Shown: positions 16,601 to 48,366, counted from the stretch's first letter. The stretch: 64,000 bases of DNA from Prorocentrum cordatum (GCA_963575745.1 CAUYUJ010000214.1:62001-126000); one strand, 5' to 3'. Made by a program: numbers and translations. The notes: generated by a model not told the origin, from the sequence alone.

Positions 16601-16953
16601 GCGGAGGATGAGTCACGAGGGTGAGCGATTGGGGAACAGTAGGAGGAGGAGGAGGAGGAGGAGGAGGAGGAGGAGGAGGAGGAGGAGGAGGAGGAGGAGG
16701 AGGAGGAGGAGGAGGAGGAGGAGGAGGAGGAGGAGGGGGAGAAGGAGGAGGAGGAGGAGGAGGAGGCGGGGCAGGTGGAGGGGGAGAAGGAGGAGGAGGA
16801 GGAGGAGGCGGGGCAGGTGGAGGAGGAGAAGAAGTAGGAGGATGAGGTGGAGGAGTTGGAGGAGGAGGAGGAGCAGGAGGAGGTGGTGGAGGTGGAGGAA
16901 GAGAAGGAGGCGGGACCCGCCGGCGGCGGAGCGCGACAGAGATCGGCGGGCAG

Positions 16954-17010
16954 ATCAACATGTCCTACGACCAGCAGGGCTGGAAGATGCCAGCGCCGCA
17001 GCTAGAGGAG
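16954..17010 (+). CDS. Candidate host micro-exon (INMSYDQQGWKMPAPQLEE)
   Basis: CAG acceptor, GAG|GT donor, 57 nt, GC-rich third codon positions. Confidence 0.4.
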
Positions 17011-20555: not shown

Positions 20556-20719
20556 GTGAGGTGGGGTGTGGGGCCTAGTGGTTGGGTGCGACAGACTCTT
20601 GCCAAGGAGCAGGGTTGGTTAGGGGGTAGGGAGAGTGTATGAGAGAAGCGGCGCCGCGAATGTATGGATATTGCGCCACAGGAGGATTGCTGGAGGACTG
20701 TCAGGAGAATCAGGAGGAC

Positions 20720-22108
20720 AAGGTAAAGGAGGAGGAGGATCAGGTGGATGACGCTGGATAGAAGGGAGGATGATGATGAGGAAGAGGAGAAGGAGGAGCA
20801 GGAGAAGGCGAAGGAAGAGGAGGTTGAGAAGGAGGTGGAGGAGGAGGAGGAGGCGGCTGCGGAAGAGGAGGTGGAGGAGGACTACGAGGAGGAGGAGGAG
20901 GAAGAGGAGGAGGAGGAAGAGAAAGAGGAGGAGTCGGCGGCGGATGATGATGATAATGATGATGCTGATGATGATGCTGCTGATGATGATGATGATGAGG
21001 AGGAGGAGGAGGAGGAGGAATCGGATGCGGATGCGGATGCGGATGCGGAGGACGAGGAGGATGAGGACTCAGAGGAGGAGGAGGAGGAGAAGGAGGAGGA
21101 GGAGAACGATGAGGAGGAATATGAGGAGGAGGACGAGGAGTAGGAGGAGGAAGAGCAGGAGGAGGAGGAGGGAGGAGGAGGAAGATGAGGATGAGGAGGA
21201 CGATGATGAGGATGAGGAGGACGAGGACGAGGAGGATGAGGAGGACGAGGACGAGGAGGATGAGGAGGAGGACGGAGGATGACGGAGGATGATAAAGGAG
21301 GATGGAGTAGGAGTAGGAGGAGGAGGAGGAGGGGGAGGAGGAGGAGGAGGAGGGGGAGAAGGAGGAGGAGGTGGTGGAGGAGGAGGGTGATATGGAGGAG
21401 GAGGAGGAGGAGGAGGAGGAGCAGGAGGAGGAGTAGGCAGAGTAAGAGGAGGAGGAGAAGGAGGAGGAGGAGGAGATAGAGGAGGAAGATGAGCTAGAGG
21501 AGGAGGATGAGGAGGAGGAGGAGGAGGAGGAGATGAGGATGATGATGATGATGATGACGCTGCTGCTGATGATGCTGCTGCTGATGATGATCATGATGCA
21601 GATGATGATGCTGGTGCTGCTGCTGCTGATGATGATGATACTGATACTGATGATGATGATGATGATGCTGATGATGATGATTATGATGATGCTGATGCTG
21701 ATTCTGCTGCTGTTGAGGATGATGCTGATGCTGCTGATGACGATGCTGATGATGCTGCTGATGCGGATGCTGATGCTGCTGCTGCTGCTGATGCTGATGA
21801 TGCTGATGATGATGCTGATGATGCTGATGATGATGCTGATGTTGATGATGATACTGCTGATGACGATGATGATGATGGTGATGATGATGAGGATGATGAT
21901 GAATACGATGATGCTGATGCTGCTGATTATGATGATACTGCTGCTGCTGATGATGATGACGATGATGATGATGCTGATGATGCTGATGCTGATGATGATG
22001 ATGATGATGATCATGATGATGATGATGCTGATGATGATGTTGACGATGATGATGCTGCTGCTGATGATGATGCTGATGATGATGTTGATGCTGATGCTGA
22101 TGATGATT

Positions 22109-22168
<60 letters not shown>

Positions 22169-22224
22169 CTGATGATGCTGATGATGCTGATGCTGATGAT
22201 GCTGATGCTGATGTGCTGCTTGAT

Positions 22225-22271
<47 letters not shown>

Positions 22272-22813
22272 GGAGGAGGAGGAGGAGGAGGAGAGGAGGA
22301 GGAGGAGGAGGAGGGGAGGGACGATGGAGGAGGAGACGGAAATAGGAGGAGTTGAGAAGAGGAGGGTAGGAAGAGGAAGAGCACGAGGAGGAGGACGAGG
22401 ACGAGGAGGATGAGGAGGAGGAGGAGGAGGTGGAGGAGAGGAGGAGGAGGAGGAGGAGGAAGGAAGGAGTAATGTTAGTTACATTAATACTGTTTTTTTG
22501 TACTACTAAGAAGAAGAGGAGGAGGATAAGGAGGAGGAGGAGGAGGAGGCGAAGGAGGCTGGAGGACGAGGAGGAGGAGGAGGAGGAGGGAGGAGGAGGA
22601 GGAGGAGGGAGGAGGAGGAGGGAGCAGGAGGAGGAGCAGGAGGAGGAGGAGGAGGAGGAGGAGGAGGAGGAGGAGGAGGAGGAGGAGGAGGAGGACTAGG
22701 ATGAGGGCTAGGAGGAGGAGGAGGAGGAGGAGGAGGAGGAGGAGGAGGAGGAGGAAGAGGAGGAGGAGGAGGAGGAGGAGGAGGAGGAGGAGGAGGAGGA
22801 GGAGGAGGAGGAG
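20720..22813. repeat. Compound (GGA)n-(GAT)n-(GGA)n microsatellite block
   Basis: Direct reading. Confidence 0.95.
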
Positions 22814-23104: not shown

Positions 23105-23524
23105 TCAGTCCACGGAGCCCTCGCGGAGGGCCGGCATGTGGAGGAGCAATTTGCCGACGACGTCGCTCCCGAACCGGTTCTCCGCGATCTGCAGCAGCTC
23201 CTTCGTGGAGACGTGGTCGAAGCCGCCCCCCTCGGAGCCGCCGTGCTTGATCTCGCACTTGTGCTTGCCCTTGCCCTTGGCCTTGCTCTTCCCCTTGCCC
23301 TTGCCATTGCGCCCAGAGCGATGGCAGTCGAGCTTCTGCATGATGCCGGCACCAACGGCGCTAAAGTCGTCGTCGAGCTCATCGCAGTCGTCGCCAAGGG
23401 AGGCCGTGCTGGCGATCTCGTCCAAGACCTCGCCTGAGCCGACGGCGTCAACCACGCTCTTCAGCTCCACGTAGCTCATGTCCTTCTGCATGTCTTCCTC
23501 GTACTCCTTCACGGAAATACCTGG
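23105..23524 (-). pseudogene. 3' part of the same interrupted ORF (PG-ISVKEYEEDMQK...GKGKGK...SVD*)
   Basis: Removing the element and one TSD joins 33475-33168 to 23519-23105, giving 723 nt open in one frame. Confidence 0.7.
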
Positions 23525-23728
23525 TGTGAAGAGTGCAGCCTCTCTGCCCCTCTGCCGCCCTGTAGCGTCGTTACAGGCATGGATGCACGGATGGTGCGTT
23601 CTGTGCATAGTTTGCTTGCTTGCGGCGCGCACGCAGGCCGCCGCCGTTTGGCCCTAGTCCTAGGGCCCTGGGACTGCACCGAGCAGACTGGCCGCCGCGC
23701 GGCCCGCGTGAAAACATTCACATTCACA
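23525..23728 (+). repeat. 5' LTR (204 bp)
   Basis: Starts TGTGAA and ends TTCACA (6-bp terminal inverted repeat). Matches 32964-33167 with 3 differences by eye (first base plus two internal substitutions). Confidence 0.95.
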
Positions 23729-23729
23729 T

Positions 23730-23741
23730 TGGTAGCGGAGC
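23730..23741 (+). promoter_or_regulatory. Primer-binding site, tRNA-iMet-like (TGGTAGCGGAGC)
   Basis: Lies 1 nt after the 5' LTR. Starts TGG (complement of tRNA CCA) and resembles the initiator-Met PBS pattern TGGTAGCAGAG/TGGTATCAGAGC. Confidence 0.8.
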
Positions 23742-25325
23742 TTGTAAGCTCCAGCGGACGCACTGCGTGCTCTGCACGGGTGGCTGCGTCCACCCCGCGC
23801 GCCGCCATGGCTGGCAGCCACGACGGCTCTGACGCGGAGGCGGAGTCCTCCGCCGGCGCAGGTCCCCCAGACCTGCACGCGGTCCTGCGCGTGATGGCCG
23901 AGACCCAGCGGGAGCTCGTGGCCTTGCAGCGGGATCGCGGTGTCGACAGTGGTCCCAGACGTGCGCGTCTACTGCTGTCGCAGGTGAAGCTCCCGGAGTT
24001 CGACGGCGCCGTCGGCACAAGCACCAAGAAGTACCGGGAGTGGCGCAAGGCTGTGGAGGTCATCCGCAGCCTCAACCAGCTTTCCGATGTGGAGCTGGGC
24101 CTGATCATCTTCAGCCAGGTGACTGGTCGGGCCAAGGAGCTCATCGAGGTTCTCGACTCGGCGGACCTCCGGCGCGAGGACACGCTCGAGACCATCTTCG
24201 CCATCTACGACGACGCCTTCGAGAAGATGGACCACGAGCGCCTGGACCAGGTGCATCAGGAATGGGAGCGTGCACGCCGACGAGCAGGGCAGCCCATCAT
24301 GGACTGGACGACGTACCTGCGGAAGAAGCGCATGGAGCTGCAGCTCGAGGACCCCACCTCGGCGATCAGCGACCGCGCGCTGGCGAGCAAGATGCTCCGT
24401 GGTGCTGGGCTGTCGCAAAAGGAGCGCGCGCAGGTGCTCTTCAACTGCGGCGGTGTCTACGACTCGAAGCGCATGGAGGTCGTGTTGAAGGCCGCCTAGT
24501 CGAGGGTGCACGACACCGAGAAACGCTCTGTGCTTCCTCGCCGCTTGCCGTTTGCGGCGGCGCAGCGTGAGCACGGGCGCTCCTCCGGAAGCTCGGGTGG
24601 TCGCTTCCCGCCCCCTTCCCAGGCTCGTAGGCCATTCGCACTTCGAGGACGCCCTGTCCAACAGGTGCACGAGGTGGAGAACGGTGGCGACTACGACGAA
24701 CACGACGACGACCTGGAGGAGGGGCAGCACGACGAGGGAGAAGCAGACGACCAGGACGACGGAGACCCCGGCGGTGGCGAGGGGATCTTCGAGGACGGCG
24801 CCGAGGTCGACGACGAGCTGGGGCCGGACGACGACGGGTCCGACGACGAGGAGTACGAGGCACCGGAGGATCTACAGGAGGCGTTCTTGGCAGGCTGGAG
24901 GGCCAAGCAGAAGACGGCAGTACAGCGTCAGAAACGCGGTTTCGTTGCCCCTCGGCAGCGGGACCCCAAGATGATCAATGCCAGCGGCTCCTTCCAGGCT
25001 GGCCGCAAGACGACTGACCAGCGCAAAGCCAATAGCCGGTGCGCTGACTGTGATCAGTCCGGCCACTGGCGCGGCGACCCGGAGTGCCCCAAGGTGAAGA
25101 GTGGCGAGCGCGAGCCGTACAACAAGAGTGGCCCTAAGAGTGGCCAGCCGGCATCGTCCAACCAGCGGAGCTCAGCGAAGCCGCCGGTGCCAAGACAGGT
25201 GCACGGGCCGGTCATCCACTGGGTTGGCATGGTTGCCAGCGGAGAAGAGCGCCGCGGCCGCGTGCCATGGCGCCGCGCCCCTCTGTCGGTGCCTGCCCGG
25301 AGGCATTCGGGAGAGGTCCGAGCCG

Positions 25326-25353
25326 ATGTTCCCGGGAGTTCCGCCGGGAACAT
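25326..25353. repeat. 28-bp palindromic site 1, ATGTTCCCGG-GAGTTCCG-CCGGGAACAT
   Basis: Perfect 10-bp inverted arms with an 8-bp spacer, read directly. Confidence 0.9.
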
Positions 25354-26399
25354 TCGACGCCAGAGTGCGCCTGCAACGCGTTCACGCCAGAAAACCGACA
25401 ATGGCCCCGGACCCGGGCAGGGCAGTGATGAACTTGGACGTGCGCGCAGCCTTGCAAGGCGCGGCGAGGATCAGCATGGCGGTGCATGCGTGCGTTGCCA
25501 CCGCATCCTGGCCAACGCGCACGCCAAAGGCCACAGCGTGGAGTTGGAGTTTCCTGACCTTGCGATGGTCCACCACATCGTGGAGCGCGTGGAAAGCAAG
25601 AAGGTCATCTTCTTCAAGCAGGGCCGCTTCGAGGCCATCGACCTCGTCCAGGGCCGGCTCATCCGGCTGCAGCTGACCACGTCGAAGCCGTGTGCGGCGG
25701 CTGAGGTGGACATCGACGAGATCACCGCGACCATGCTCAAGATCGTGACGGGCGGCCGGGGCACCAAGCACCGCGACGATCAGCGCCGTGAGGGCGGAAG
25801 CCGTGACACCAAGCACCGCGACGATCAGCGCGGTGAGGGCGGAAACCGTGACACCAGGCATCGTGGCGATCTTCACCGAGATCGTCGTGACGATCGCCAC
25901 CGAGATCGTGGTGCTCTTCGCCGTGAGCATCGCGCCCCTCCTTCGCATGGCCGGTTCTCATCGCGTTCGAGGTCGCGGAGCGCGCCGGCAGGCCGCGGTG
26001 CGAAGGCAGAGAAGAGGAAGGCGAGGAGCAGCACGGAGGTGAAGAAGGAGGCCGAGGTGAAGAAGGAGGATGAGGCCAGCGAGGAGGATGAGGCCAGCGA
26101 GGACGATGAGGATCAGCGGCGCGAGGATAAGGAGCAGCCGTTCACGCCGGAGGAAATGGACGAGATCTTCTGCTGCTGGTACCCGCGCCAGGACATCTTT
26201 AGGGATTGCCTGACGCCGCCGGCGACCATCCACTTCATCACGAAAAACGACCGCATCGTGCGCCTCAGCCTTTACACGCGCCGCTGCGAGAAGCCGGACT
26301 TCTCTCCAACTAGTGGCCCTGCGAAGGCCCATCCGGTATTCGTGGTGGACGCCGCGGCGGCGCCGTCGGTGAGGGGGGCATCGAAGACGAAAGGATCAA

Positions 26400-26427
26400 A
26401 TGTTCCCGGGGGGCCTTCCGGGAACAT
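26400..26427. repeat. 28-bp palindromic site 2, ATGTTCCCGG-GGGGCCTT-CCGGGAACAT
   Basis: Perfect 10-bp inverted arms with an 8-bp spacer. Confidence 0.9.
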
Positions 26428-28146
26428 CCCAGACGGAGCTGCGCCAGGACAACCGCCCGCAGTGCCGACTGGGGAAGCCGCCGCCGCCCCGAAGGACGAG
26501 GACTGGGCCATGGCAGGAGCCTCCGAGGACGTGAGGAAGAGCGAGGAGAAGAGACGACTGGAGGTCTTGCAGCGTGACAAAGCCGAGCTGCTGGACCGCC
26601 TCGCGCTGATAGAGAAGCAGGAGTCGGAGATGCATGCCCGGCTGAACCCAGGCGAGGTCTACGACGGCTTGCAGAGGCGTCGCGGGCAGGCACCTCCGCC
26701 TGAGCGCGCTCTGCCTACATCTCCCGAGCAGCAGGGGGTCGGAAACGCGTGGAAGAACATGGAGGGAGTTCGACGACGTGCTCATCTTCCAGCGCCTCCA
26801 GGTGCGGCCAGCCCCGGAGCCGTGAACTCAGGTGCGCCTGCCGCTGCGACGGCACCTCCGGCTGCATCTGAAGCCCCGCGCGTAGTCACTGCATCTGGAC
26901 GGAGCTGCGTCATGAGTGCCGGCGCCACGCAGAGCGACCTGGAGAAGCAGCAGATGCATCGAGCTATGTACGACTCGCAGTTCGACGGCGAGAGGCTGGT
27001 CCCAGGTCCGAAGGCGAAGTTCGATCCAGAGCTCATGCAGCAGCAGGCTGCGTGTCCTCATCCGGCTGACGAGCTTAAGTGGCAGTCGAACGGCACCGTG
27101 ATCTTCGCGAAGTGCAAGAAGTGCTCGCTGAAGTCGGTGATCCACTACACGCTGGAGAAGCCCAAGGCGGATGAGGAGGACCCACTGCAGCGCGCGGACC
27201 CCTGGGCGGCAAAAGGGAGGATCTGCAACTCACGTGGTCACTCGCCGAGATGAGCGCCCTCGCGAGGCGATCGACGAGCAGTCCGTCATGCTTGTTGTCC
27301 TACCCGCGGGGCTGGTTATGATTGTCACGGGCTGCAAGCGGGCTGTCGGTGGACGTCCGTGGCACGTCGAGTTGCAGAAGACCTTGGATGCCATGAGCGC
27401 GCCGTACCACAGCATCAGCCAGCACGAGTACTTCAAGTTCGGTCCAGGTGTACCGCTCGTGTCAGACCGTGCGTGGTGCTACACTGTCGGCATCAACGGT
27501 GCGCAGTGCGAGGTTGTGATCTCCGAGGTCGATGCCGAGGTGCCCGGTCTCGTCGGCCCTGACGAGATGGCAGAGTGGGACGCGGCAATCAGCTTCAGGA
27601 ACGGAACTTTCACGGCGAACGGCGTGACCAAGCCGTTGGTCCCGGCTGCGTCCGGGCATCCGTGCGTGTCACTTCTGGATTTCCCGGCGCCGGTCGCGAG
27701 TGCCTTCCCCGTCGGGCAGCCAGAGGGGCAGGACGAGCTCGCCGACGAGATGTTCAGTGGCACTGCGAGCCACGAGGAAAAGGACGAATGCAGCGCTGCC
27801 GAGGCCGCCGAGGAGGGGGGCACGCACGAATTTGACAGCAACGATGGCGAGGACGCGGGCGATTCAGAGTTGAGCGCATCCCACTATCACACCAGCGACC
27901 CGGAGTCCTCGGAGACGGCATCGAGCGACGAGGAGGTCTTCATGGAGAACGCGGACAACGAGGCTTTCATGACGAAAGGTGCTCGCAGGCGTGTCCGGAG
28001 CAACATGAAGGAGCTGGAGGTTTTGATGATCGAGGAGATCGCGAACAGGAAGCTTCGGGCTGATCGGCAGGAGCAGGACGCCATCAAGCACTACCGGGAG
28101 GAACTCGTACTACCTCTTCGGCGGGAGACCCGGCGGCGACCGGGGC

Positions 28147-28690
28147 CCTGGAGGATTGTGGAAATCTTCGCATGGGCGTGCCAGCTCACGACCCTGGCGG
28201 CGAGTATGGGATGGGACGCCCACCAGCCCATCACAGCGCCAGCGTTCGACCTCCTGACGGTCCAGGGCAGGAGCGAGGCACGGGCGCACCTGGTTGCAGT
28301 TGATCCAGACTCCGTGGCCTTGTCCCCGCCTCGTACGGCGTGGAATCGACTGCAGCGCGTCGACCAGCGGAGGCCTATGCGAGTGCGCCGGCAACGACGA
28401 GAGCGGACTGAGTACCGCATGTTGCTCTCGTTCACAGACGAGGTGATGCAGTGGCAAGCTGCAGGAGGACGCGCAGCCATGGTAGTGGACCACGCGCAAT
28501 CGACAGCCTGGAGCCAGCCACCCATGAACGCAACGAAGTCGAACCCAGCATTCGAGGACGCGATCTGCCTCCAGAACACCACGCGGGTGTTGGCAAACCC
28601 TGAGGTTTGCACTGCTGCGCGCGGAAGCTGCGCGGAGGGGTTCGCCAAGGCTGTGATGACCGGTGCCGCGGATTACTTGGCCCGGCAGTG
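28147..28690 (+). other. Degenerate C5-cytosine methyltransferase-like domain inside copia pol
   Basis: Ordered motif remnants: RIVEIFAW (motif I, ELFxG-like), FDLL, LSPPRTAW (motif IV, SPPC with C>R), VDH at the motif VI (ENP) position, TTRVLAN, GFAKAV (motif X-like). Confidence 0.6.
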
Positions 28691-28770
28691 CGAGAACTCG
28701 AGCTTCCCTGCGGCGCACCTTCCGGGCCCCACGGAGGAGCCCAGGAGTTATGGACCAGAGCCCGCGGAGC

Positions 28771-28798
28771 ATGGTCCCGGAGAGGCTCCCGGGAACAT
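28771..28798. repeat. 28-bp palindromic site 3, ATGGTCCCGG-AGAGGCTC-CCGGGAACAT
   Basis: One mismatch to the arm consensus; 8-bp spacer. Confidence 0.88.
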
Positions 28799-29728
28799 TT
28801 CGGAAAGACCTGAGTGGGGCAAAACACCGCAGGAGATTCGAGCCGAGATTCGCGAGGCATTGCAGAAGACGGTGAAGGAGGAGTCCATGCAGCACCCCGC
28901 GGAGGAGGAGGAGGTTGCAGCCTCCTGGTCAGAGATGGAGCTCCCGGAGGTGGTGCGGCAGGACATCATGACGAAGATTCCCCGGAGTACGCGACGTGCC
29001 GTGCGGAAGGCCCATCGCGGTCTTGGACGCCCCAGCCGACCGACAGTCGTCAAGATGCTGCGTCTGGGCGGTGCCGCGCCCACCGCGATGGCATACGCGA
29101 AGCATTGGCAGTGCCCGACTTGCGCTGAGTCGGAGGCGCCGCCCCGTCCAGTGCAAGGGGCGGCGGACGTGCGACCATTCGGCTTCAACGTGGCGGTTGT
29201 GATCGACGTGAAGTACCTACGGGACGCGGCCAAGGAGCAGCTGGTGGTTCTCAGCATGGTGGACGCTGGCACGGGATGGCACTGCGCATGCCTTCTCAAG
29301 AATAGGACGGCCAAGCACATTGCGCGCCAGATCATGAGCGAGTGGTTCAAGCATTACGGCGTGCCAGAGAACATCGTGATCGATCAGGGCGGCGAGTTCG
29401 AGGGCTTCTTCAACGCGCTGATGGAGCAGTTCGGTATTAATGCGAAGACGACGGGAGCCCGTGCAGCATGGCAGCACGGCCTGGCAGAGCGCCACGGAGG
29501 CCTCCTCGGCACTATCTGGGGCAAGGTGGTGCGCGAGTTTCATGTCGAGGGCAAGTCGATGTCTACTGTGGCCCTGGCTGCTATCGTCAACGCGAAGAAT
29601 TCGACGATCTGCCGCAACGGGATGACCCCGGAGCGGGCTGTCTTCGGGCGGATCTTGAATTTCACGGAGGTGACCAACAGGGACGACGACGAGGTTCTCA
29701 TGTCGGTCCTCGGCGCTAAGGGCATAGC

Positions 29729-32700
29729 TTGGCGTTCGTCCCAAATCCGCACCGCAGCCAAAATGATGTTGCTGGAGCGCGACGCGACGGACAAGGTGCG
29801 GAGGGCGCTGCTGCGACAGGCGCCGACGGTCGTCGGCGATCTGCGCCCAGGATCGCGGGTGTTTTCTGGGCACCGAATCCGTTCAAGGGACGTCGTCGGC
29901 AAGATCCTGAAAGGTGGCGGGGTCCTGCGACTGTGATCGCGAAGGAATCCAACAGCCGGTATTACTTATCATGGCGTGGTCACGTGCTACTCGTTGCTCG
30001 TGAGCAGCTCCGGCACGCCTCCTCCCAGGAGGCCGCGGCCGCGGAGTCCATCCAGACGGACGTGCGGCTGACGCAGCAGCGAGATGATCGTGCCTTCCAC
30101 GACGTCGTGGACGTCACGCCCAAGGTGAAGGTCCAGAGGGTGAAGAAGACGTTCCTGAAGAAGCTACGCGAACGACACAGTGAGCTCGAGGGGTCCAGGC
30201 AGCCTCGCGTGGACCTGAAGGCCCTGAACGCCACCGAGGCGCAGGCTAAGGAGGAGGAGCCACCTGAGCAGGAGCAGTTGCCGCAGCTTCCACCTCCGAG
30301 GAGGGCCCGGTCTCGTTCCCCTCCAGGCCGGATGTCCTCTGGAACGTTCCCGGGAGCCTCTCCGGGGGCATCGGGCTCCGGTGGCCCTCCGGAGCCGCCG
30401 ATTCCCAGATGCGATTTCGAGCTCGAGCGGAAGCGGAAATTTCTGGTAGATGACGTGCCGAGCTGCATTAAGAGATCGCGTCTGCAGGCTGCCCCCACGA
30501 GTGGCTTGCCGGCCCTCCGCGAGGTTGCCATGAACGCTGTGGTGCACTCGGGGCCCCAGGAGTGGTTCGACCAGAACGCCTTGGATGGCATCTCCACGCT
30601 CGTTCAGAAGGTCGTGCGAGGAGTGCGTGTGCATCGAGAGCCGCGGCGGCGACTCTATGATCACGACCGTCACCGGGAGTGCAATCGCCTGTCGGTGATG
30701 CTCTCCGCCACGGGCCAGTGCGCCTACAAGGACGACGGCGCGAGCCGTACCAATCAGCGCATGGAGGACAGCTGGGTTGGCCTCGCGATCTTCTACCACG
30801 ACAAGCCGGATGCTCAGGCACAGGGTGTGTGCTATTTGGACACTCCGGATGGTCTTGTACGGCAGCCGCTGACTTACGAGGATTGGCTCAACGTGTCGTC
30901 CGTGTATGACACATGGCTGCAGGGGGCGCGGTACGAGTGCGACGTGTTCGCACTCGTGATGAAGCAGAACGCGAAGGAGCTAGACCCGCGTCACTTCGAC
31001 CAGCACGAGAAGGCTAAGTTCGACGAGGCCGATGCCGCCGAGTGGCGGCAGTGGATCGCCAACGACACGGTCGAGCTGGTCACCGAGGAGGAGGAGAGGA
31101 GCATTCCGAAGGACAAAATCATCTCGGTGCCCATGCGTTCGGTTCGCGCGAACCGGGTGCGAGGGTCAGAGTTGGAGGCGAAGTCGCGCTTGATTATCCC
31201 TGGCCATCTCGACCCGCAGCTTGGTCTATTCAGGACGGATTCGCTTGCCACCTCCCCTTTGGCCGTGCTGGTGTGTGCGTCTATCGCAATGGCGATGGAC
31301 TGGACATTCGAGTGCTTCGACGTAGCGACCGCGTTCCTGTCCGGGCTGAAGCTGGAGCGGGAGCTGTGCGTGAGGGCTCCTAAGGGCGGGCTTCCAGCCG
31401 TCGACGGCGCTGGATGGCCAGCTGTGCGGCCCTATGCGTTGCTTCGCTTGCTGAAGGGGGCGTGCGGTTTGACGGAGGCGCCTCGGTTGTGGTATCTCCG
31501 AGCCCGCCAGGTGCTGACGGACGAGGTCGGCTTCGTGGAGCTGCGCTGTGCTCGGGATGTCTTCGTTTACCGGGTGGCCAGCAAGTTGATTGCTATGTTG
31601 ACGATGCGCGTCGACGACGGCATGCTGTTTGGGGGCCCGCGCGACCCCCAGTGCTAGCAGGTGATGGCGAATATCAACAAGCGCTTCAACATCAAGCACT
31701 GGAAGGAGGGCAATGACACGGAGGCAGTCGCCTATCTCGGGGAGGAGTGGTGGCGCCACCCCGACCACATCGAGATCAGCATGCACGAGTACATCGGCAA
31801 GCTGACGAAGTACCCCCTTGCAAAGGAGGAGGACGAGGAGCGGGAGATGACCCCAGAAGAGCACCACGACTTCCGGAGCTTGCTCCAGAAGGTGCGCTGG
31901 CCTGTCGCACGCGTGGTGCCACAGCTCGCATACAGTGCGTCGGCGCTCGCACAGAAGGATCCGAAAGGTCGGCGGTTATTGCACCTGCGAGTGCTCAATG
32001 ACATCATCGACCGCCTCCAGGACTACGACAAGAGAGGTCTTGCGACTCTCCGGATCCGCCGCGTGGACATCGAGCGCTTGCAGGTGCTCACGCTCATGGG
32101 CGCTTCGTTCGCGAAGGAGCCCGGCTGTAAGAGCCAGATGGGGTTCATGAGCATGATTACGGACATGCGCGTGTTGAAGGAGTTAGCGGTGTGTTGTCTC
32201 GTGGAGTTCCAGAGCAGTACTATTACACGAGTTGTTGGATCCACGATGGCCGCAGAGTCTGCAGCTATGTCCGTTGCTTTGGATCGGCAGCTCTACCTCA
32301 GGCTGCTTATCGAGGCCATCTTGTACGGGGAGCCGCCCTTGCAAGGGGGCTGGAGGCTGGCGCTGAAGGTCCCTGGGGCGCTTGTGACGGATGCGAAGTC
32401 GCTCTACGATCACGCGTGCAAGATCGGTTCGATGTCGGTGTCTCGGCAGACCCTCATCGACCTGTTGGTGGCCAAGGACTTGATCGAGCAGGAGGCCATC
32501 AAGTTCAAGTGGCTGCCCAACAGCCACATGCTGGCGGACGTGCTGACGAAGGCCGTGCAGCCTAACGAGGTGCTGTTGCAGTTCCTCCGCCACGGAGTGT
32601 TCAGCATGGTGCCGACTGCCGAGCAGGAGGATGAGGAGGCGCACCGTCTGCGGCTGCGCCGCGGACAGCGTGAGAGAGCCAAGGAGCGGAAGGTCCAGCG

Positions 32701-32734
32701 CCGGGCCGCCGTTCCAGGGCCTGCGAGCCCATGA
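29729..32734 (+). pseudogene. pol: Copia pol part 2: reverse transcriptase and RNase H (in-frame TAG at 31655-31657)
   Basis: RT: KSRLIIPGHLDP, FDVATAFL, LLKGACGLTEAPRLW, RVDD (31607). RNase H: GASFA, MAAESAA, TDAKSLYD, MLADVLTK. ORFs 29729-31657 and 31661-32734 are in the same frame; the frameshift from integrase is near 29860. Confidence 0.92.
30344..30371. repeat. 28-bp palindromic site 4, ACGTTCCCGG-GAGCCTCT-CCGGGGGCAT
   Basis: Three mismatches to the arm consensus. Its spacer is the exact reverse complement of the site 3 spacer. Confidence 0.78.
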
Positions 32735-32963: not shown

Positions 32964-33167
32964 GGTGAAGAGTGCAGCCTCTCTGCCCCTCTGCCGCCCT
33001 GTAGCGTCGTTACAGGCATGGATGCACGGATGGTGCGTTCTGTGCATAGTTTGCTTGCATGCGGCGCGCACGCAGGCCGCCGCCGTTTGGCCCTAGTCCT
33101 AGGTCCCTGGGACTGCACCGAGCAGACTGGCCGCCGCGCGGCCCGCGTGAAAACATTCACATTCACA
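32964..33167 (+). repeat. 3' LTR (204 bp; 5' edge may instead be 32951)
   Basis: Direct repeat of 23525-23728, ending TTCACA and followed by the TSD CCTGG. Confidence 0.93.
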
Positions 33168-34203
33168 CCTGGGTCGTCGAGCTCCTCGGGAACCGCGTTC
33201 GAGCCGATGTCGAAGCACTGCAACTCCCCGTTGCTCTTGTCCTTCTCGGGCTTCGGCGCGACGTCCTCCAGCGTCACACCCGCAACCTCATCCTCGTAGT
33301 CGCCGTCGCGTGACGCCGCGATGTCGCCTCCAGCCTGACTTGCCCGACGCCAAGCCATGAAGCTGAAGTCCATCACGTCGCGCTCGTAGCCGCCGTAGTC
33401 GTCGTAGTTGGTGCGTTGCAGCCGCCGTCGCTGTAGATATCGTACTGCTCGACGCTCAGCGGTGGATCTCCGCATCCACCCCCGCCAGGGGCGCCTCCAC
33501 GATCTCCTCCTTGTTGGCCGCCAGCCTCGATGACCATCGATTCCTTTTTGGCACCGGTGCCGGCGCCTCCTCCTGCATCTCCTCCTCGATCAGGTACGGG
33601 TCCCAGTCCACCTGGATGTTCTCCTTCACCTGGTTGTCCTCCTGCTGGTGCTGGTTCGGCTGCTCCGCGCAGGTCGCCTCCTGCACCAGCTCCGCTTGCT
33701 GCTGCTGAGTGCCAGCAGGCGGGAGACCCGCGCACGTCATGCAGTAGCCCCTGAAGCCGAAGTTGACGAAGCCGCAGTGGCCACACTTCCACTTGGGCAC
33801 GTGGTTCTTTGTCTTGCTGGCCGCTGCCGGCGATGCCATCGTCGCCAGCTGCCGCGGCCTCTTCCTGGGCTGGGCCCCCTGGCAGGAGCTCTCCCGAGCT
33901 GGTGACCAGGCGGCCGCCGATGCCTCCGCCCACAGCTTCTCCTTGGCTTCCTTGGCGTTCACGAAAGCCTCGCGGTTGATCATGCGCTGCTCCTGCTGGA
34001 ACTTCCTCTTGTACTGCTTCCTCTGGTTCGCACTGAGCTTCGAGCGCATCCACGGCACTCGGGCCCGCTGCGCGGGTGGCGTTCCCGAAAGCGTCGACAT
34101 TGAGCACGTAGACGCTGATCTCGGAGCCGCGAGCGATCTCGATGTCAGTCAGCAGCTTGCCAACCACCTGGCCGTCCGAGCTGTCCGCAATGAAGAATTT
34201 CAT
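33168..34203 (-). pseudogene. 5' part of a decayed ORF with a RanBP2-type zinc finger, interrupted by the copia insertion
   Basis: WKCGHCGFVNFGFRGYCMTC (33732-33791) fits W-x-C-x2-C-x3-N-x6-C-x2-C. Protein-like reading switches among three frames. The last segment ends ...EELDDPG at the TSD. Confidence 0.65.
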
Positions 34204-35842: not shown

Positions 35843-36679
35843 GCCTGGCCCACCCCTGAGCGTCCTTTCAAATCTTCTCCCCCGCGCTCTCCCTCTTTCC
35901 TTCCTTCCTCTCCTTCCTCTCCTCCGAGTGACGCTCGTCGGAGCTCGGTTGCGCTTGGCTGGAGGAAGCCGAGTGGCCTAGAAGCCCGACGATTGTACTT
36001 ATCCAGCCGGTTGGCGTGCTGTTTCTCCACAGAGTTTTTTTACCCCTCACCCGCTCGCGTGCCGATGCCCTCGCCGGGAGGACTTTCGTCCTCGGAGGGG
36101 ATCGGGGTCCCCCTTCGACTCCCGAGGCAGGATCGAGGAGCGATGATCGAGGAGGAGTCAAACATAGAAGTTCGTGGATGGATCGGGGACCAAGGAGGGA
36201 TCGAGGATCGAGGAGGGGATCGAGAATCCAGGAGGGATCGTGGAATGAGGATCGAGTGGGGGAGAAGTGCGCGGCAGAGCAGGCTGCGATCTAGCGCCCC
36301 CCCACCCCCCACCCCGGACAAGAGAGCACTCCAGCTCTCCACGGGCCATCCTGCATCTTCGGGCAGAGCAGCCAGGGGCAGATGCTGGTGCCTGCGTGTG
36401 GGCCCCTGGATGCCCAGAAGTCTGTACAAGTGGGAGTGACATGTTGTTCCTCCTCTCCTCCTTCTCCTCCTTTTCCTCCTCCTCCTCCTCCACCTCCAAC
36501 TTCTCCTCCTCCTCCTCCTCCTCCTCTTCTTCTTATTCTTCTTCTTCTTCTTATTCTTCATCCTCCTCCTCATTCTCCTCCTCCTTCTCCTTCTCCTCCT
36601 CCTCCTCCTCCTCCTCCTCCTCCTCCTCCTAGAGCCACTAGAGCCAAGCTCCTTCGCACTGCGGCCCTGCACTCTGAGC

Positions 36680-37030
36680 ATGCGTGTCCGCAGATTGCTG
36701 GAGATTTCGGTCAGTGCCGTAAGTGTGTGTTGGTGCCGTGCCAAGGCCTCGGAGCTCACGGCCTTCCTTGGGACCCCGTGCCGCCCGATGTTTTGGTCTG
36801 GGGCAGTGTTTAGGCCCAGTGGGGCCGTGTGTGTCCGCTCGAGGGAGGTGCACCCCACCCACCAGCTGTGTTTCTGGCCTGACAACGATGTCTTGTTTTG
36901 CATTGTGTGCGGTTGTTATAGCACTAACCAGTTGCGAGAATTGGCCTGCGTTTGCAGTTATAATCTCAGTCGAGCATGCTCCCAGAATCTGTCCAAGATA
37001 GGTAGGGGCCTCTTGCCTGGGAGCTGCGCT
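36680..37030 (+). mobile_element. Probable 5'-truncated retroelement fragment with a Cys/His zinc-binding motif
   Basis: VHPTHQL...FCIVCGCYS...LACVC...GRGLLPG, beginning just after a (CCT)n tract. The assignment to a LINE C-terminus is inference. Confidence 0.4.
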
Positions 37031-37488
37031 TGGGGCAGAGAGCGGCAGGAGCGGAGGGAGCGGGGGGGGCGGAGAGAGCGAGGGGAGAGCGCCGCGGCCA
37101 CGGCGCGACGGGCGGCGTTCGACCACGCCGCTGTCGCCATCTGCGGCATCAGGCGCCGCCCCGCTTCCGCCCCCCCCCCCCCCGCCCTGCTGCCGCTGCC
37201 CCGCCCTGACCCCCTTTTCCTACGGTCGCTGTTGACCTTGCCCTATATATCCTCCTCCTCTCCTCCTCCTCCTCCCTCCCTCCTCCTCTCCTCCTCCCTC
37301 CTCCCCATCCTCCTCTCCCCTCCTCCTCTTCCTCCTCCTCCTCCTCCTCCTCCTCCTCCTCCTCCCCTCCTCCTCCTCCTCCTCCTCCTCCTCCTCCTCC
37401 TCCTCCTCCTCCTCCTCCCCCTCCCCCCCCCCTCCTCCGAGACTTGCTTTGCTTACGTTGATTTTGCCTCTCTGCCGGGCCGCCCGTC

Positions 37489-38059
37489 AGCCGTCCTTCT
37501 GGGAGGGGCCCGGGGTTGGTTGTCTCTCTTTTGGCGGCAGCGGCGGTGCGCGGCTTCCCCCCCAAGGGTCGCATCCTCCCGAGGGGGGGGGGTCGACGTG
37601 CGAGGGGCGCGGACGACGAAGGGGTCCTCCCGAGGAGGAGATCCTCCTGGGGTGTTCCGATCCCCCCGAGCGGGATTCCTTGTGCCTTCTTTTGCCGTGG
37701 GCTGGCCGAAGTCCGACCTACCTCGGCTGCCTTCCTACGTCGTGCTTTTGCTGTTTCTGCCTGCCTGGTCCGAGCCGTCCTTCTGGGAGGGGCCCGGGGT
37801 TGGTTGTCTCTCTTTTGGCGGCAGCGGCGGTGCGCGGCTTCCCCCCCAAGGGTCGCATCCTCCCGAGGGGGGGGGGTCGACGTGCGAGGGGCGCGGACGA
37901 CGAAGGGGTCCTCCCGAGGAGGAGATCCTCCTGGGGTGTTCCGATCCCCCCGAGCGGGATTCCTTGTGCCTTCTTTTGCCGTGGGCTGGCCGAAGTCCGA
38001 CCTACCTCGGCTGCCTTCCTACGTCGTGCTTTTGCTGTTTCTGCCTGCCTGGTCCGAGC
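37489..38059. repeat. Exact 284-bp tandem duplication
   Basis: AGCCGTCCTTCTGGGAGGGG starts at 37489 and 37773. Copies are identical by eye, with AGC microhomology at the junctions. Confidence 0.95.
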
Positions 38060-40547
38060 GACATATGCCTGGCGCTTGGCGTTGGCTCTGTGGTATTTAC
38101 CTTGGCTGTTGTGGATGTTCGCTGGGCGATGTTGGATGTGCCGTCTTGGAGTGACGCCGCAGCGGCAGTACAGCCAAGAAGCTGAACTTTCAGGTGGGGC
38201 TCAGGCGAGGCCGTTCCTTGGATGTAGGTCGTCGTGGCCGAGGCTCGCCGTGGCCAGGAACGCCTCTGCGTTCCCTCTTGAGTGCGTCTCGTGATGGCGC
38301 GATGACCGCCGCGAGGGCCTGCGCGGCCGCGAGGCGCGGCTCGGCTGTCCTGTCATCTGTCTTACCCTTTCCTCCTCCCCCAGCTCCGTCCCCTCCTCCT
38401 CCGCCTCCTCCTTCTCCTCCTCCTCCTCCTCTCCTCCTCCTCATGTTCCTCCTGCCCCTTCTCCCTCCCCCTCCCCCCCCCCTCCCCCTCCCCCTCCTCC
38501 TCCTCCTCCTCCTCCTCCTCCTCCTCCTCCTCCTCCTCCTCATTTCTCATTTCTCGCTATGCAGCGTCTTGTCGCGCGCCCCGCGGGCGCGGAGCGCGCC
38601 GCAGCGGCCCTCCAGGGCCGTGCGGGCACTCGGACAGCGGCCCCGGGAACCCGACCCCGAGGAAAGCAGGGGGAACCAGGGACCAATTTAAACCTCAGAG
38701 GAGGGAGAAGGGGGGCCGGGTTTCAGCAAAAAGAAAAAAGGGGGCCCGTCAGGGCCCACGGGCGGGCGCCGCGCGCGCCCGTGCCAGCGGGCGTCAGCCA
38801 GCGCGGCGCGCGGCCAGGCCGTCGGCCTCTTTGTGGGCTGGCGGCCGCGTGGGTGGCGGCTGGGCTCCCTTCGGCGCCTCGCGCTGAGCCCAGCCGCCGT
38901 GGGGTCTTCGGGTGGCTGGCTGCCCCCAGCTGCGGCGGCCTCCACCCTTCGGCGCAGCGCGCTGTGGAGGCCCGCCGAGCCGCTCTTGGGCTCCAGCAGG
39001 TCTGCAGCGGCTGCTCTCGTCATCATGCCGATCAAGGCCGGCTGGCCTCGGCCCCTCGCATGCCACGCGAGGGCGACGGGGATACACCCTTCGGCGCCTG
39101 GCGCTGTGTATCCCTCGCCGAGGGGCAGGCCGCCCCTTCTCGTCGAGTACTCCATGTTGAACCTGCAGTGCTGCCTGACACTGTGGTGCTCGAACACGTA
39201 TCCCTCGTCCTAGCCGCGCTGGACGGGTTGGTACTCCTGCTTGATCCTGTCCAGTCTTGGTCGTACTGGTATTCACTAGCCGTAATGTCCGATGTCGTCA
39301 ATCATGCCACCCCCGCCTCTGCAGTACAGGAGGGTGCTGATCTCGGATGTTGTGGATGGCGGTCGTTTGTAGGGCTGAGTGCAGGGTGTGGAGCGTGCTG
39401 GTCAGGTCGTTGGGGGTCGGATCGTTGCTGGTGTTGCGTTGGTTGTGGGCTTCCAAGGCCTCCATGCACCGACTTCAAGTGGGGGTCTTGGCTGTCCCAC
39501 CTCGTCCCGCTATGGCTAGGGGTCACAGTGCCCTCGGTGGGGGCGAACCCCAGGCCTGGTACTTATTATCGTCGGAGTGGGATGTCTCGGCTGTCCTGTG
39601 CTTCGCCCACGGGCGCTCGGGTAGCTCCTCCTTCTCCATGGGAATGGTGGGGGTGGCGAGCTAGGGCGGACCGCGGGGGCGCAGGTAGTGGCCGTCCTAC
39701 CCCCCCCTGCCCCTCACCATCCCCGCTGGTGGGCGCGGGAAGTACTCGTCCTTCCCCCCCGCCCTTCGAGCCCGTCTCGAAGTTTGATCCTCACCAGGAC
39801 AGCGTTGACTTGACAGGAGGTGTGCGGGGTCGTGCTGGGTATGCTGTCGATGTCGGTCAGTAGTACGCCGGCGGCGTATGGACCGCCCGCTGCCAGCCAG
39901 CTGGCGCCGTCCAAGTTGTAGGTAGCCAGTCGCCGCCAGGGTACACAACAAAACGTGGCGACTTGTGCCTGGGGTGTTCCCTCGCATTCGGGGCTTCCCC
40001 AGGACTTGCGTTCTAACCAGGGCAAAACTTGGCGACGCTGCCTGAGGTCTTCCCTCGCATTCGGGGCTTCCTCAGGACTTAATCCATGGCACCGTAGTGC
40101 CTTGTCCAGGGCGCTGGATAATCATAGAAGTAAATACCAGTGTTGAAAGAAAGCCAATAAATCCAGAAAGTGCTCGAGGGCGGGGCACGCTCCGTCGCCA
40201 TTGAGGGATCGTGCCCACCCGTATGGGCGCTACGGGTCCCCCCCCCTCGAGTATGGCACGCAATCGCTGTCCAAGACGCAGCCGTGCCAATAACCCAGTA
40301 GCAATGCGGGTCTTGAGTACATACAGTAGGTGCGCTGATGCTGACGCGCCTGCTGCCACTCTGAAATATTACCCGACTGTACACAATTCTGTAATACCAA
40401 CTGCCCTCCAATCTGTAAGATGCCAATAGTCTGCGCCAAACTGCAAACCGATGGTCCCTTCCAGGGACTGGCCAGTATGAATAATCCTGAACCAATTAAA
40501 CTCGAATGTCTGTGCAGACAAAAGTAGTGCCGCTGCAGTGTCAGCTG

Positions 40548-48214: not shown

Positions 48215-48366
48215 AGTTGCGGCGTCTAGGGAGCTAGTAATGCAGGTGGTTCGTCTGCTGCGTCTTTTGAGTCGGGGCTCCCTAGTAGAGCGTTGGTGGT
48301 TTGAAGCGGATGCGGCATCCCCCAGGCTCGCATCGGCTTGGACGTAGCTATGTAGTGTGATGGAGG

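What the first reader, a model, noticed from the sequence alone, without database searches (positions are those of the whole stretch)
25326..30371. Four recombinase-site-like 28-bp palindromes punctuate the copia polyprotein at domain boundaries
Seen: ATGTTCCCGG-N8-CCGGGAACAT occurs at 25326, 26400, 28771 and 30344, with conserved arms and a fixed-length but variable 8-bp spacer. I did not notice it elsewhere in the window. The sites lie after the gag zinc knuckle, inside the accessory region, between the MTase-like domain and integrase, and between integrase and RT. Sites 1-3 share a codon phase (xVPG...GNI) but site 4 is in another phase (TFPGASPGA), which points to DNA/RNA-level constraint. 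The spacers of sites 3 and 4 (AGAGGCTC and GAGCCTCT) are exact reverse complements and flank the integrase. Established: inverted arms around an asymmetric 8-bp spacer is the architecture of tyrosine-recombinase sites such as loxP and FRT. Inference: these could be sites for module exchange or inversion in a cargo-carrying LTR element, binding sites for a dimeric protein, repeated RNA hairpins (packaging or dimerisation), or CCGG-containing targets for the encoded methyltransferase. No recombinase is encoded in the window.
Basis: partly seen in the sequence, partly recalled or inferred. Interest (0 to 1): 0.8.

Follow-up and report, generated by a model that had tools for sequence, protein, structure and literature searches.

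The report
Four palindromes inside an algal retrotransposon
A copia-type jumping gene of a green alga carries four copies of one 28-base palindrome in the linker regions between its protein domains; they are real and conserved at the DNA/RNA level, but their purpose is unproven and nothing shows they are recombinase sites.

Summary
ATGTTCCCGG-N8-CCGGGAACAT occurs four times (0, 0, 1 and 3 mismatches), only inside one 9.6-kb Ty1/copia-type LTR retrotransposon; shuffles give none.

The constraint is on nucleotides, not on the peptide. In sites 1-3 all 15 third-codon positions of the arms are identical, while the spacers differ at 4-7 of 8 positions. The arms use rare codons. Site 4 is in another reading phase and is site 3 inverted.

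All four sites lie in poorly conserved linkers. They are specific to this family: relatives at 43-79% protein identity lack or erode sites 1, 3 and 4.

The recombinase reading has no support. No recombinase turned up in 48 ORFs. Spacers differ, except that 3 and 4 are inverted copies. No listed joint connects two sites or changes strand in four public runs.

My best guess (0.3) is plus-strand RNA stem-loops that can also pair between RNA molecules, like the Ty1 PAL1-PAL2 dimerisation hairpin. That would also make them template-switch hotspots. The strongest rival (0.25) is neutral relics of short palindromic insertions.

The host genome was not available, so the family-wide DNA test is still open.

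Side finding: the "MTase-like" domain has a true C5-DNMT fold and is widespread in related copia-like polyproteins.

The parts
23520..23524 (+). 5-bp target-site duplication CCTGG (left)
   Evidence: Read; identical to 33168-33172.
23525..23728 (+). 5' LTR (about 204 bp, TG...CA)
   Evidence: 2 mismatches over 203 aligned bases to the 3' LTR. Ends read.
23730..23741 (+). Primer-binding site TGGTAGCGGAGC (resembles the complement of the initiator tRNA-Met 3' end; that resemblance is recalled, not tested)
   Evidence: Read, one base after the LTR.
23807..27253 (+). gag-side ORF: ATG at 23807, in-frame TAG at 24497-24499, zinc-knuckle-like motif 25040-25087, unassigned module between sites 1 and 2, zinc ribbon 27053-27124
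25326..25353 (+). Palindrome site 1, ATGTTCCCGG-GAGTTCCG-CCGGGAACAT, 0 mismatches, encodes (D)VPGSSAGN(I)
   Evidence: Forms the hairpin in the in-context MFE fold.
26400..26427 (+). Palindrome site 2, spacer GGGGCCTT, 0 mismatches, encodes (N)VPGGPSGN(I)
   Evidence: Forms the hairpin in the in-context fold. A 79%-identical relative, P0015, keeps NVPGGPPGNI.
27141..29936 (+). ORF piece with protease (27318-27353; active-site position reads IVTG where relative P0005 has LDTG), degenerate DNMT-fold domain (28140-28688), integrase (zinc region 29013-29123, rve core about 29196-29453). Frameshift to the previous piece near 27200; other copies have one more base at 29862.
28771..28798 (+). Palindrome site 3, ATGGTCCCGG-AGAGGCTC-CCGGGAACAT, 1 mismatch, encodes (H)GPGEAPGN(I)
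   Evidence: Absent from the 71%-identical relative P0026 as part of an indel of about 35 aa.
30344..30371 (+). Palindrome site 4, ACGTTCCCGG-GAGCCTCT-CCGGGGGCAT, 3 mismatches, other codon phase (TFPGASPGAS). Its spacer is the reverse complement of site 3's.
   Evidence: 30367 reads A in contigs of all 4 laid runs, which is closer to the palindrome.
29720..32734 (+). ORF pieces with the reverse transcriptase (RVT_2 match about 31265-31633) and the RNase H region; in-frame TAG at 31655-31657
32964..33167 (+). 3' LTR
33168..33172 (+). Target-site duplication CCTGG (right)

Best explanation
The four 28-bp palindromes are a family-specific, nucleic-acid-level element of a Ty1/copia-type LTR retrotransposon. 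They are placed where the polyprotein tolerates them: in translated, poorly conserved Pro/Gly-rich linkers between domains.

Most likely they act on the plus-strand genomic RNA. Each is a 10-bp stem with an 8-nt loop, and its self-complementary arms can switch from a hairpin to a duplex with the same or another site on a second RNA. That would give contact points for genome dimerisation or packaging and, as a by-product, hotspots for reverse-transcriptase template switching.

Shown: the sites exist, are non-random, are constrained on nucleotides rather than on amino acids, and are confined to linkers of this family. Inferred: that the RNA rather than the DNA is the active form, and the dimerisation or template-switch role.
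For: 1. Non-random and element-specific: 4 matches against 0 in 100 shuffles, none in the other 54 kb of the window.

2. Nucleotide rather than peptide constraint. Among sites 1-3 the arms differ at 0-1 of 20 positions but the spacers at 4-7 of 8 (Fisher p = 6e-4, 5e-5 and 0.015). All 15 third-codon positions of the arms (positions 2, 5, 8, 23, 26 in three sites) are identical. The only arm change is non-synonymous (GTT to GGT).

3. Rare codons. The arms use GTT (0.13 of Val), CCC (0.20 of Pro), GGG (0.19 of Gly) and xAT (about 0.25). Under peptide-only selection that is about 1e-3 per site.

4. Site 4 keeps the nucleotides in another reading phase.

5. Hairpin stability. Isolated hairpins are stable (-17.2, -17.4, -12.2, -14.9 kcal/mol). 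Sites 1 and 2 form them in the MFE of 88-nt contexts.

6. Strand hint. In site 4, 2 of the 3 departures from the palindrome are G.U pairs on the plus strand only: 9 of 10 pairs and -14.9 kcal/mol, against -10.0 on the minus strand.

7. Inter-site pairing. Every pair of sites can form a duplex of -44 to -65 kcal/mol, the strongest being site 3 with site 4 (34 nt, 85% complementary).

8. The one arm change in the window that contigs of all four laid runs lack (30367) moves away from the palindrome (A in 4 of 4 runs).

9. Precedent. In Ty1 the PAL1 and PAL2 arms of hairpin SL1 pair between molecules to dimerise the genomic RNA (PMC6844567, abstract and passages read).
Against: In context, sites 3 and 4 do not form the expected hairpin in the MFE, and no fold is better than shuffles (z from -1.31 to +0.68).

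The sites are not conserved in sister lineages:
- 3 of 4 relatives at site 1 (74-78% identity) read DAPGS.AGNP, which breaks the outer arm positions without a compensating change;
- P0026 (71%) lacks site 3;
- P0005 (43%) shows neither the site 3 nor the site 4 peptide, and P0006 (61%) lacks site 4's;
- one X3 contig carries an eroded site 4.

No compensatory covariation could be tested, because no DNA of other copies was obtainable. No RNA holder was available to test structure or expression. Known retroelement dimerisation signals sit in the 5' UTR or gag, not spread over 5 kb of coding sequence. Nothing distinguishes RNA from double-stranded DNA function except the two G.U pairs, and A-to-G changes are among the commoner substitution types anyway (table 1).
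Confidence: 0.3

Rival explanations
1. Neutral relics of short palindromic DNA. A tiny inverted-repeat (mini-MITE or hairpin-type) element, or inverted copy-paste events, placed the 28-mer in either orientation. Only insertions in flexible linkers that kept the frame survived. The arms are alike because they were the mobile unit's terminal repeats, not because they work in the retrotransposon.
For: Sites 3 and 4 are the same 28-mer in opposite orientation (25 of 28 bases; spacer 8 of 8). All four sit in non-conserved linkers. Presence is lineage-specific, and erosion in relatives is at about the background rate. The palindrome has no stop codon in any frame on either strand (read), so it is harmless in an ORF. 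Palindromic elements inserted in frame into genes are known in Rickettsia (recalled; a search listing mentions them).
Against: There are no target-site duplications at any of the 4 sites (flanks read). 28 is not a multiple of 3. There are 0 copies in the 54 kb of the window outside the element. The 9 exact matches in the metagenome collection lie in unrelated contexts with no polyprotein homology. Four independent in-frame insertions into one master lineage is a lot. Arms perfect at sites 1 and 2 after a divergence that changed 5 of 8 spacer bases needs separate source subfamilies.
Confidence: 0.25
2. Binding sites on the double-stranded DNA copy for a dimeric protein, with each arm a half-site and a fixed 8-bp gap. 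The protein could be a host factor or a product of the element, such as its DNMT-fold domain or zinc-ribbon module. The effect would be on transcription, chromatin, methylation or integration.
For: Conserved arms with a fixed-length, free-sequence spacer is the classic layout for a dimeric binder. Each site holds two CCGG. The family encodes a C5-DNMT-fold domain.
Against: There is no candidate binder with a known matching specificity. The DNMT-fold domain of this copy has lost the conserved PC and ENP motifs. CpG and CCGG are everywhere in a 63-66% GC element. The sites erode in relatives that keep the domain. Two of the site 4 changes keep RNA pairing but not DNA symmetry.
Confidence: 0.15
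3. The peptide is what matters: a Pro-Gly-rich flexible linker or a protease processing site (hydrophobic-P-G-x-x-x-G) at the polyprotein junctions. On this view the DNA palindrome is a by-product of recent duplication of one linker cassette.
For: The sites fall where Gag/PR, PR-accessory/IN and IN/RT cleavage would be expected. All four encode x-P-G-x-x-x-G even in the different phase: VPG, VPG, GPG, FPG. Relatives keep PGSSAGN and PGGPPGN.
Against: Synonymous positions of the arms are invariant (15 of 15) while the spacers are scrambled. The only arm change is non-synonymous. Rare codons are used throughout. Site 4 gives a different peptide. Seventeen related polyproteins show no repeated junction motif. 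More distant relatives have unrelated linkers at these places.
Confidence: 0.1
4. Targets of a site-specific (tyrosine-type) recombinase supplied in trans, allowing inversion of the integrase segment (sites 3 and 4) or exchange of modules.
For: Inverted arms around an asymmetric 8-bp spacer. Sites 3 and 4 have the same spacer in inverted orientation around the integrase. One structural variant seen in two runs has a breakpoint inside the spacer of site 2 (joint 27174 to 26414, in frame).
Against: No recombinase family was found in 48 ORFs of the window, and the neighbouring retroelement is LINE-like, not DIRS. Spacers of sites 1, 2 and 3 differ, so they could not recombine with each other under the usual spacer-identity rule (recalled). 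None of the 15 listed joints (of 39) links two sites or changes strand. The other end of the 27174-26414 joint is not at a site. One of 30 listed joint ends falling in 112 of 9658 bases is about what chance gives (my arithmetic: 0.35 expected). Inverting the integrase would simply destroy the ORF.
Confidence: 0.04

Closest known systems
Ty1 SL1 hairpin (PAL1-PAL2 palindromes), the RNA dimerisation site of the yeast Ty1/copia retrotransposon (PMC6844567; abstract and passages read)
   Same: It is a stem-loop in a Ty1/copia-type genomic RNA. Its two self-complementary arms pair within one molecule in the monomer and between molecules in the dimer. Alternative palindromes can substitute for it.
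   Different: Ty1 has one such hairpin, with 6-7-nt arms and a 3-4-nt loop, in the 5' UTR. Here there are four copies of one 10+8+10 unit, spread over 5 kb of coding sequence, translated, and not conserved in sister lineages. No experimental evidence exists here.
loxP / FRT-type tyrosine-recombinase sites (architecture recalled, not from a call)
   Same: Inverted arms flank an asymmetric 8-bp spacer, and orientation is defined by the spacer.
   Different: The arms are 10 bp, not 13. No recombinase was found. Spacers differ among three of the four sites. No recombination products were seen.
Rickettsia palindromic elements and other short palindromic repeats that insert in frame into genes (recalled; search listing only: PMC1779305, PMC10969869)
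   Same: A palindromic repeat lies inside protein-coding sequence, is translated, is tolerated in surface or linker regions, and occurs in either orientation.
   Different: Those are 100-150 bp, bacterial, and dispersed across many genes. Here the unit is 28 bp, lies in a eukaryotic retrotransposon, and has no copy outside it in 54 kb.
Retrotransposons that captured a cytosine-5 DNA methyltransferase (PMC5890265; passages read)
   Same: The host element family carries a C5-DNMT-fold domain inside the polyprotein.
   Different: That paper reports DNMTs in LINE, DIRS and Gypsy elements and states that Symbiodinium Copia elements lack one. Here the domain sits between protease and integrase of copia-like elements, has no Pfam match, and lacks an obvious FxGxG motif I.

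Membership tests
Tyrosine-recombinase target site (loxP/FRT-like) | Inverted arms around a short asymmetric spacer | tested here: met
   10-bp arms and an 8-bp spacer at 4 sites.
Tyrosine-recombinase target site (loxP/FRT-like) | Cognate recombinase encoded with or near the sites | tested here: not met
   Pfam on 48 uninterrupted ORFs of 200 aa or more gave no recombinase family. Spliced genes and the rest of the genome were not testable.
Tyrosine-recombinase target site (loxP/FRT-like) | Partner sites share the spacer (crossover region) | tested here: not met
   Spacers of sites 1, 2 and 3 differ at 4-7 of 8 positions. Only sites 3 and 4 share one, in inverted orientation.
Tyrosine-recombinase target site (loxP/FRT-like) | Recombination products (inversion, deletion) with breakpoints in the spacers | tested here: inconclusive
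   15 of 39 joints are listed. None links two sites and none changes strand. One joint (27174 to 26414) ends in the site 2 spacer. Contigs only, no long reads.
Miniature inverted-repeat / short palindromic mobile element | Terminal inverted repeats | tested here: met
   10-bp arms.
Miniature inverted-repeat / short palindromic mobile element | Target-site duplication flanking each copy | tested here: not met
   The 2-3 flanking bases differ at all 4 sites.
Miniature inverted-repeat / short palindromic mobile element | Dispersed copies outside the host element | tested here: inconclusive
   0 copies in the other 54 kb of the window. No genome is held. The 9 metagenome matches are unrelated.
Retroelement RNA dimerisation/packaging hairpin (Ty1 PAL-like) | Self-complementary arms able to form a hairpin and an intermolecular duplex | tested here: met
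   Hairpins of -12 to -17 kcal/mol and duplexes of -44 to -65 kcal/mol. The in-context MFE shows the hairpin at sites 1 and 2 only.
Retroelement RNA dimerisation/packaging hairpin (Ty1 PAL-like) | Located in the 5' UTR / gag packaging region | tested here: not met
   The sites lie 1.5-6.5 kb downstream of the gag ATG at 23807.
Retroelement RNA dimerisation/packaging hairpin (Ty1 PAL-like) | Conserved, with covariation, among related elements | tested here: inconclusive
   Peptide evidence only. Site 2 is kept in P0015. Site 1 is eroded in 3 of 4 relatives. Site 3 is absent in P0026. No DNA of relatives was obtainable.
Retroelement RNA dimerisation/packaging hairpin (Ty1 PAL-like) | Mutations reduce dimerisation or mobility | not testable with these tools
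   Needs experiments.
Ty1/copia LTR retrotransposon (the host element) | LTRs with 5-bp TSD, PBS, domain order PR-IN-RT, copia-type RT | tested here: met
   LTRs and the CCTGG TSD. rve before RVT_2 (both below Pfam cut-off in this decayed copy). Relative P0006 scores 69.2 bits for RVT_2.
C5 DNA methyltransferase (accessory domain, tested on relative P0005) | DNMT fold | tested here: met
   AF2 model with pLDDT 95.7. Foldseek top hits are MET1, EhMeth, DNMT3A/B, DIM-2 and DNMT1, with probability 0.99-1.0, TM 0.38-0.55 and 9-13% identity.
C5 DNA methyltransferase (accessory domain, tested on relative P0005) | Catalytic and cofactor motifs (FxGxG, PC, ENV; motif names recalled) | tested here: inconclusive
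   The family consensus has AWPCTPWS and GENP but E.FTW where FxGxG is expected. 0 of 34 members match Pfam DNA_methylase. The window copy reads PR and DHA at the PC and ENP positions.

The most novel reading that the evidence does not exclude
The palindromes are built-in exchange joints. Identical self-complementary hairpins at module boundaries let reverse transcriptase (or an unlinked recombinase) jump between sites or between co-packaged RNAs, so whole modules are swapped, duplicated or dropped in frame.

Sites 1-3 share a codon phase, and it is the one phase that reads the same after inversion. Sites 3 and 4 can form a 28-34-nt duplex that loops out the integrase.

Weak hints:
- an in-frame 768-nt tandem-duplication variant in two runs has its junction inside the site 2 spacer;
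- a relative's homology breaks 4 nt before site 2.
Probability: 0.08. Interest if true: 0.85.

Novelty: new variant of a known kind. Interest (0 to 1): 0.5.

Why it matters
Cis-acting RNA signals of LTR retrotransposons are known from very few models (Ty1, Ty3, retroviruses). There they are single and lie near the 5' end.

A unit repeated four times, sequence-constrained and embedded in translated linkers across the polyprotein, would be a different design. If real, it could mean multi-point genome dimerisation or packaging, or programmed template switching.

It could also explain how large, cargo-carrying copia-like elements gain and shuffle modules. These elements carry a zinc ribbon, a DNMT-fold domain and unassigned modules.

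If the sites turn out to be relics of tiny palindromic insertions, that would be a rare eukaryotic nuclear counterpart of in-frame palindromic repeats known from bacteria.

Either answer needs only the host genome assembly and an alignment of family copies.

Tried and rejected
- Whole-genome scan for the motif: impossible, no genome is held.
- Exact-pattern scan of metagenome contigs: 9 loci, with GC from 0.42 to 0.69. Some are reverse-complement homologues of each other (L001/L006, L007/L008). There were 0 tblastn hits to the polyprotein, so they are unrelated hairpins.
- Exact-pattern scan of viral contigs: 0 matches.
- Protein-guided search for related loci: none in viral contigs (24 pattern matches, 0 confirmed) and none in prokaryote genome contigs (87 pattern matches, 0 confirmed). 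So no DNA of relatives was obtained, and arm covariation could not be tested.
- Sequencing runs: no RNA holder was listed, and all holders had small shares of 0.14 or less. X1, X2, X3 and X7 were laid as contigs only, so nothing can be said on expression, RNA ends or rare inversions. Only 40 of 1746 base differences, 12 of 98 indels, 15 of 39 joints and 24 of 403 loose ends were shown.
- Two loose ends abut sites (X2 at 26396, X3 at 30341). About 0.4 are expected among the 24 listed, so this is not convincing.
- Earlier findings of the scan: nothing by place, sequence or words.
- Other repeated palindromes in the window: none.
- Larger repeats around the sites: only a few flanking bases beyond the 28-mer.
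- Analogous repeated junction peptides in 17 related polyproteins: none.
- The module between sites 1 and 2: no Pfam match and no usable Atlas hit.
- DNMT-fold domain against PDB sequences: 0 hits.
- Literature: no paper describing such palindromes in copia polyproteins turned up in two searches.
- Rejected by inspection, or by comparison with motifs I recalled (no tool call): sequencing adapters, LTR-LTR circle junctions (the LTR ends TGTGAA/TTCACA do not match the arms), tRNA-derived sequence, 2A-type skipping peptides (no NPGP), mini-introns (no GT..AG of plausible length), E2F/STAT/Gal4-type sites.

Full report
**Observation**

The pattern ATGTTCCCGG-N8-CCGGGAACAT, allowing 3 mismatches, occurs exactly four times in the 64-kb window. 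The sites are at 25326 (0 mismatches), 26400 (0), 28771 (1) and 30344 (3). None occurred in 100 dinucleotide-preserving shuffles.

Half-sites do not occur elsewhere above chance: 8 matches, 7 of them in the four sites, with 4.39 expected. A relaxed scan (up to 6 of 20 mismatches, spacer 6-10) finds no decayed fifth site: 8 rows lie outside the sites, against 13 per shuffle. No other palindrome in the window is repeated.

The spacers are GAGTTCCG, GGGGCCTT, AGAGGCTC and GAGCCTCT. The last two are exact reverse complements, so site 4 is site 3 inverted (25 of 28 bases).

**Host element**

The sites lie in a complete LTR retrotransposon:
- 5-bp target-site duplication CCTGG at 23520-23524 and 33168-33172;
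- LTRs at 23525-23728 and 32964-33167, with 2 mismatches in 203 aligned bases;
- primer-binding site TGGTAGCGGAGC at 23730;
- gag ATG at 23807.

The coding region is broken in this copy. There is an in-frame TAG at 24497 and a frameshift near 27200. Other copies have one more base at 29862, and there is a TAG at 31655. The protease active-site position reads IVTG where relative P0005 has LDTG.

The domain order is zinc-knuckle-like motif, unassigned module, zinc ribbon, protease, accessory domain, integrase (rve), reverse transcriptase (RVT_2). That is a Ty1/copia layout.

Nine of the 13 short protein hits are EukProt entries named Pyramimonas sp., at 69-98% identity. The host is therefore probably a prasinophyte green alga of that kind.

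**Nucleotides or peptide?**

Sites 1-3 share one codon phase and read DVPGSSAGNI, NVPGGPSGNI and HGPGEAPGNI. Site 4 is in another phase and reads TFPGASPGAS.

Four observations reject a purely peptide-level cause.

1. Among sites 1-3 the arms differ at 0-1 of 20 positions while the spacers differ at 4-7 of 8 (Fisher p = 6e-4, 5e-5 and 0.015).
2. All 15 third-codon positions within the arms are identical. The single arm change is non-synonymous (GTT to GGT). This is the reverse of what peptide selection after duplication would leave.
3. The arm codons are minority codons in this element: GTT 0.13, CCC 0.20, GGG 0.19, xAT about 0.25.
4. Site 4 keeps the bases but not the phase.

CCCGG still yields Pro-Gly in both phases used. 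So all four sites encode a Pro/Gly-rich linker, which is probably why they are tolerated.

**Conservation**

More distant relatives have unrelated linkers at the places of sites 3 and 4: P0005 (43%) and P0009 (32%) at both, P0006 (61%), P0007 and P0008 where they cover them.

Closer relatives give mixed results.

| Site | Relative (identity) | State |
|---|---|---|
| 1 | P0019 (98%) | identical |
| 1 | P0020, P0021, P0023 (74-78%) | DAPGS.AGNP; outer arm positions changed, no compensating change visible |
| 2 | P0015 (79%) | kept as NVPGGPPGNI |
| 3 | P0026 (71%) | missing, within an indel of about 35 aa |

Seventeen related polyproteins show no analogous repeated junction motif.

In contigs of four public runs, position 30367 reads A in all four, so site 4 in those contigs is closer to the palindrome. 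No other position of the four sites is among the 40 best-supported differences (of 1746). One X3 contig carries an eroded site 4. Overall the sites belong to this family and are not strongly kept in sister lineages.

**Recombinase reading**

No recombinase family was found in 48 ORFs. The neighbouring retroelement on the minus strand (40551-51837) looks LINE-like, with weak Exo_endo_phos_2 and RVT_1 matches, not DIRS-like.

Three of the four spacers differ. None of the 15 listed joints (of 39) links two sites or changes strand.

One in-frame variant, seen in X3 and X7, joins 27174 to 26414 inside the site 2 spacer. Its other end is not at a site, and one such hit is about what chance gives. 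I rate this reading at 0.04.

**RNA reading**

Isolated hairpins are stable, at -12 to -17 kcal/mol. In 88-nt contexts only sites 1 and 2 form them, and z-scores are unremarkable.

Two of the three departures in site 4 are G.U pairs on the plus strand only. Any two sites can form duplexes of -44 to -65 kcal/mol. Site 3 with site 4 is the strongest (34 nt, 85% complementary).

The closest known mechanism is the Ty1 SL1 hairpin. Its PAL1 and PAL2 arms pair between molecules to dimerise the genomic RNA (PMC6844567).

I therefore prefer plus-strand RNA stem-loops serving as RNA-RNA contacts and template-switch hotspots (0.3). The rivals are:
- relics of short palindromic insertions (0.25);
- a dimeric DNA-binding protein (0.15);
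- a peptide linker or cleavage site (0.1).

The insertion rival is weakened by three points: no target-site duplications, a unit length that is not a multiple of 3, and no copies outside the element. Only the host genome can settle it.

**Side result**

The accessory domain called 'MTase-like' has no Pfam match (0 of 34 family members match DNA_methylase). It models with pLDDT 95.7, and its best structural matches are C5 DNA methyltransferases: MET1, DNMT3A/B, DNMT1, Dnmt2 and DIM-2, with probability 0.99-1.0.

It has 1917 representative relatives at E up to 1e-3. Many sit inside polyproteins of 1400-2900 aa with the same domain order.

The paper on DNMT capture by retrotransposons reports LINE, DIRS and Gypsy carriers and says Symbiodinium Copia elements lack one (PMC5890265, passages).

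**Limits**

No DNA of other family copies could be read. Only contig summaries were available. Supplements of the cited papers were not consulted.

Noticed in passing
window 28140-28688; relatives P0005 residues 478-716, P0009 residues 224-449: The accessory domain between protease and integrase has a C5 DNA-methyltransferase fold (AF2 pLDDT 95.7; Foldseek hits to MET1, DNMT3A/B and DNMT1). It has no Pfam match and no obvious FxGxG motif. It has 1917 representative relatives (E up to 1e-3), many inside long copia-like polyproteins. The window copy has lost the conserved PC and ENP motifs. A 2018 paper lists DNMT capture in LINE, DIRS and Gypsy elements but not in Copia.
   Followed up: partly
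window 24497-24499: A single in-frame TAG separates the first 230 codons of gag (ATG at 23807) from the rest of the long ORF. None of the listed read differences falls here. It could be a decay mutation or a read-through stop; this was not tested.
   Followed up: no
window 26414-27174: Contigs in two runs (X3 and X7, depth about 45-49) join 27174 back to 26414 with 7 extra bases (AGGGGAA or AGGGAAA). This is an in-frame 768-nt tandem duplication of the coiled/zinc-ribbon segment in a subfamily.
   Followed up: partly
window 40551-51837, minus strand: A second large retroelement: three long ORFs (1494, 1314 and 1156 aa) with only weak Pfam matches to RVT_1, Exo_endo_phos_2 and a C2H2 finger. 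It looks LINE-like and carries very large unassigned regions.
   Followed up: partly
window 25755-25930 and 26030-26110: Inside the module between sites 1 and 2 there are 45-nt tandem repeats encoding TKHRDDQR.EGG.RD units, and an acidic repeat run. Relatives vary here (P0022), and contig homology breaks at 26081-26115.
   Followed up: no
window 16500-17000, 20700-22700, 36400-38600: Long purine-rich or pyrimidine-rich triplet repeats (GGA/GAG and TCC types), hundreds of bases each, flank the element. There is also an exact 284-bp tandem duplication at 37489-38056.
   Followed up: no
window 27053-27124; P0005 residues 89-119: A conserved C..H...C..C zinc-ribbon segment just upstream of the protease is shared by all long relatives. 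It has a faint match to a transposase zinc ribbon (Zn_ribbon_IS1595, E = 0.39).
   Followed up: no
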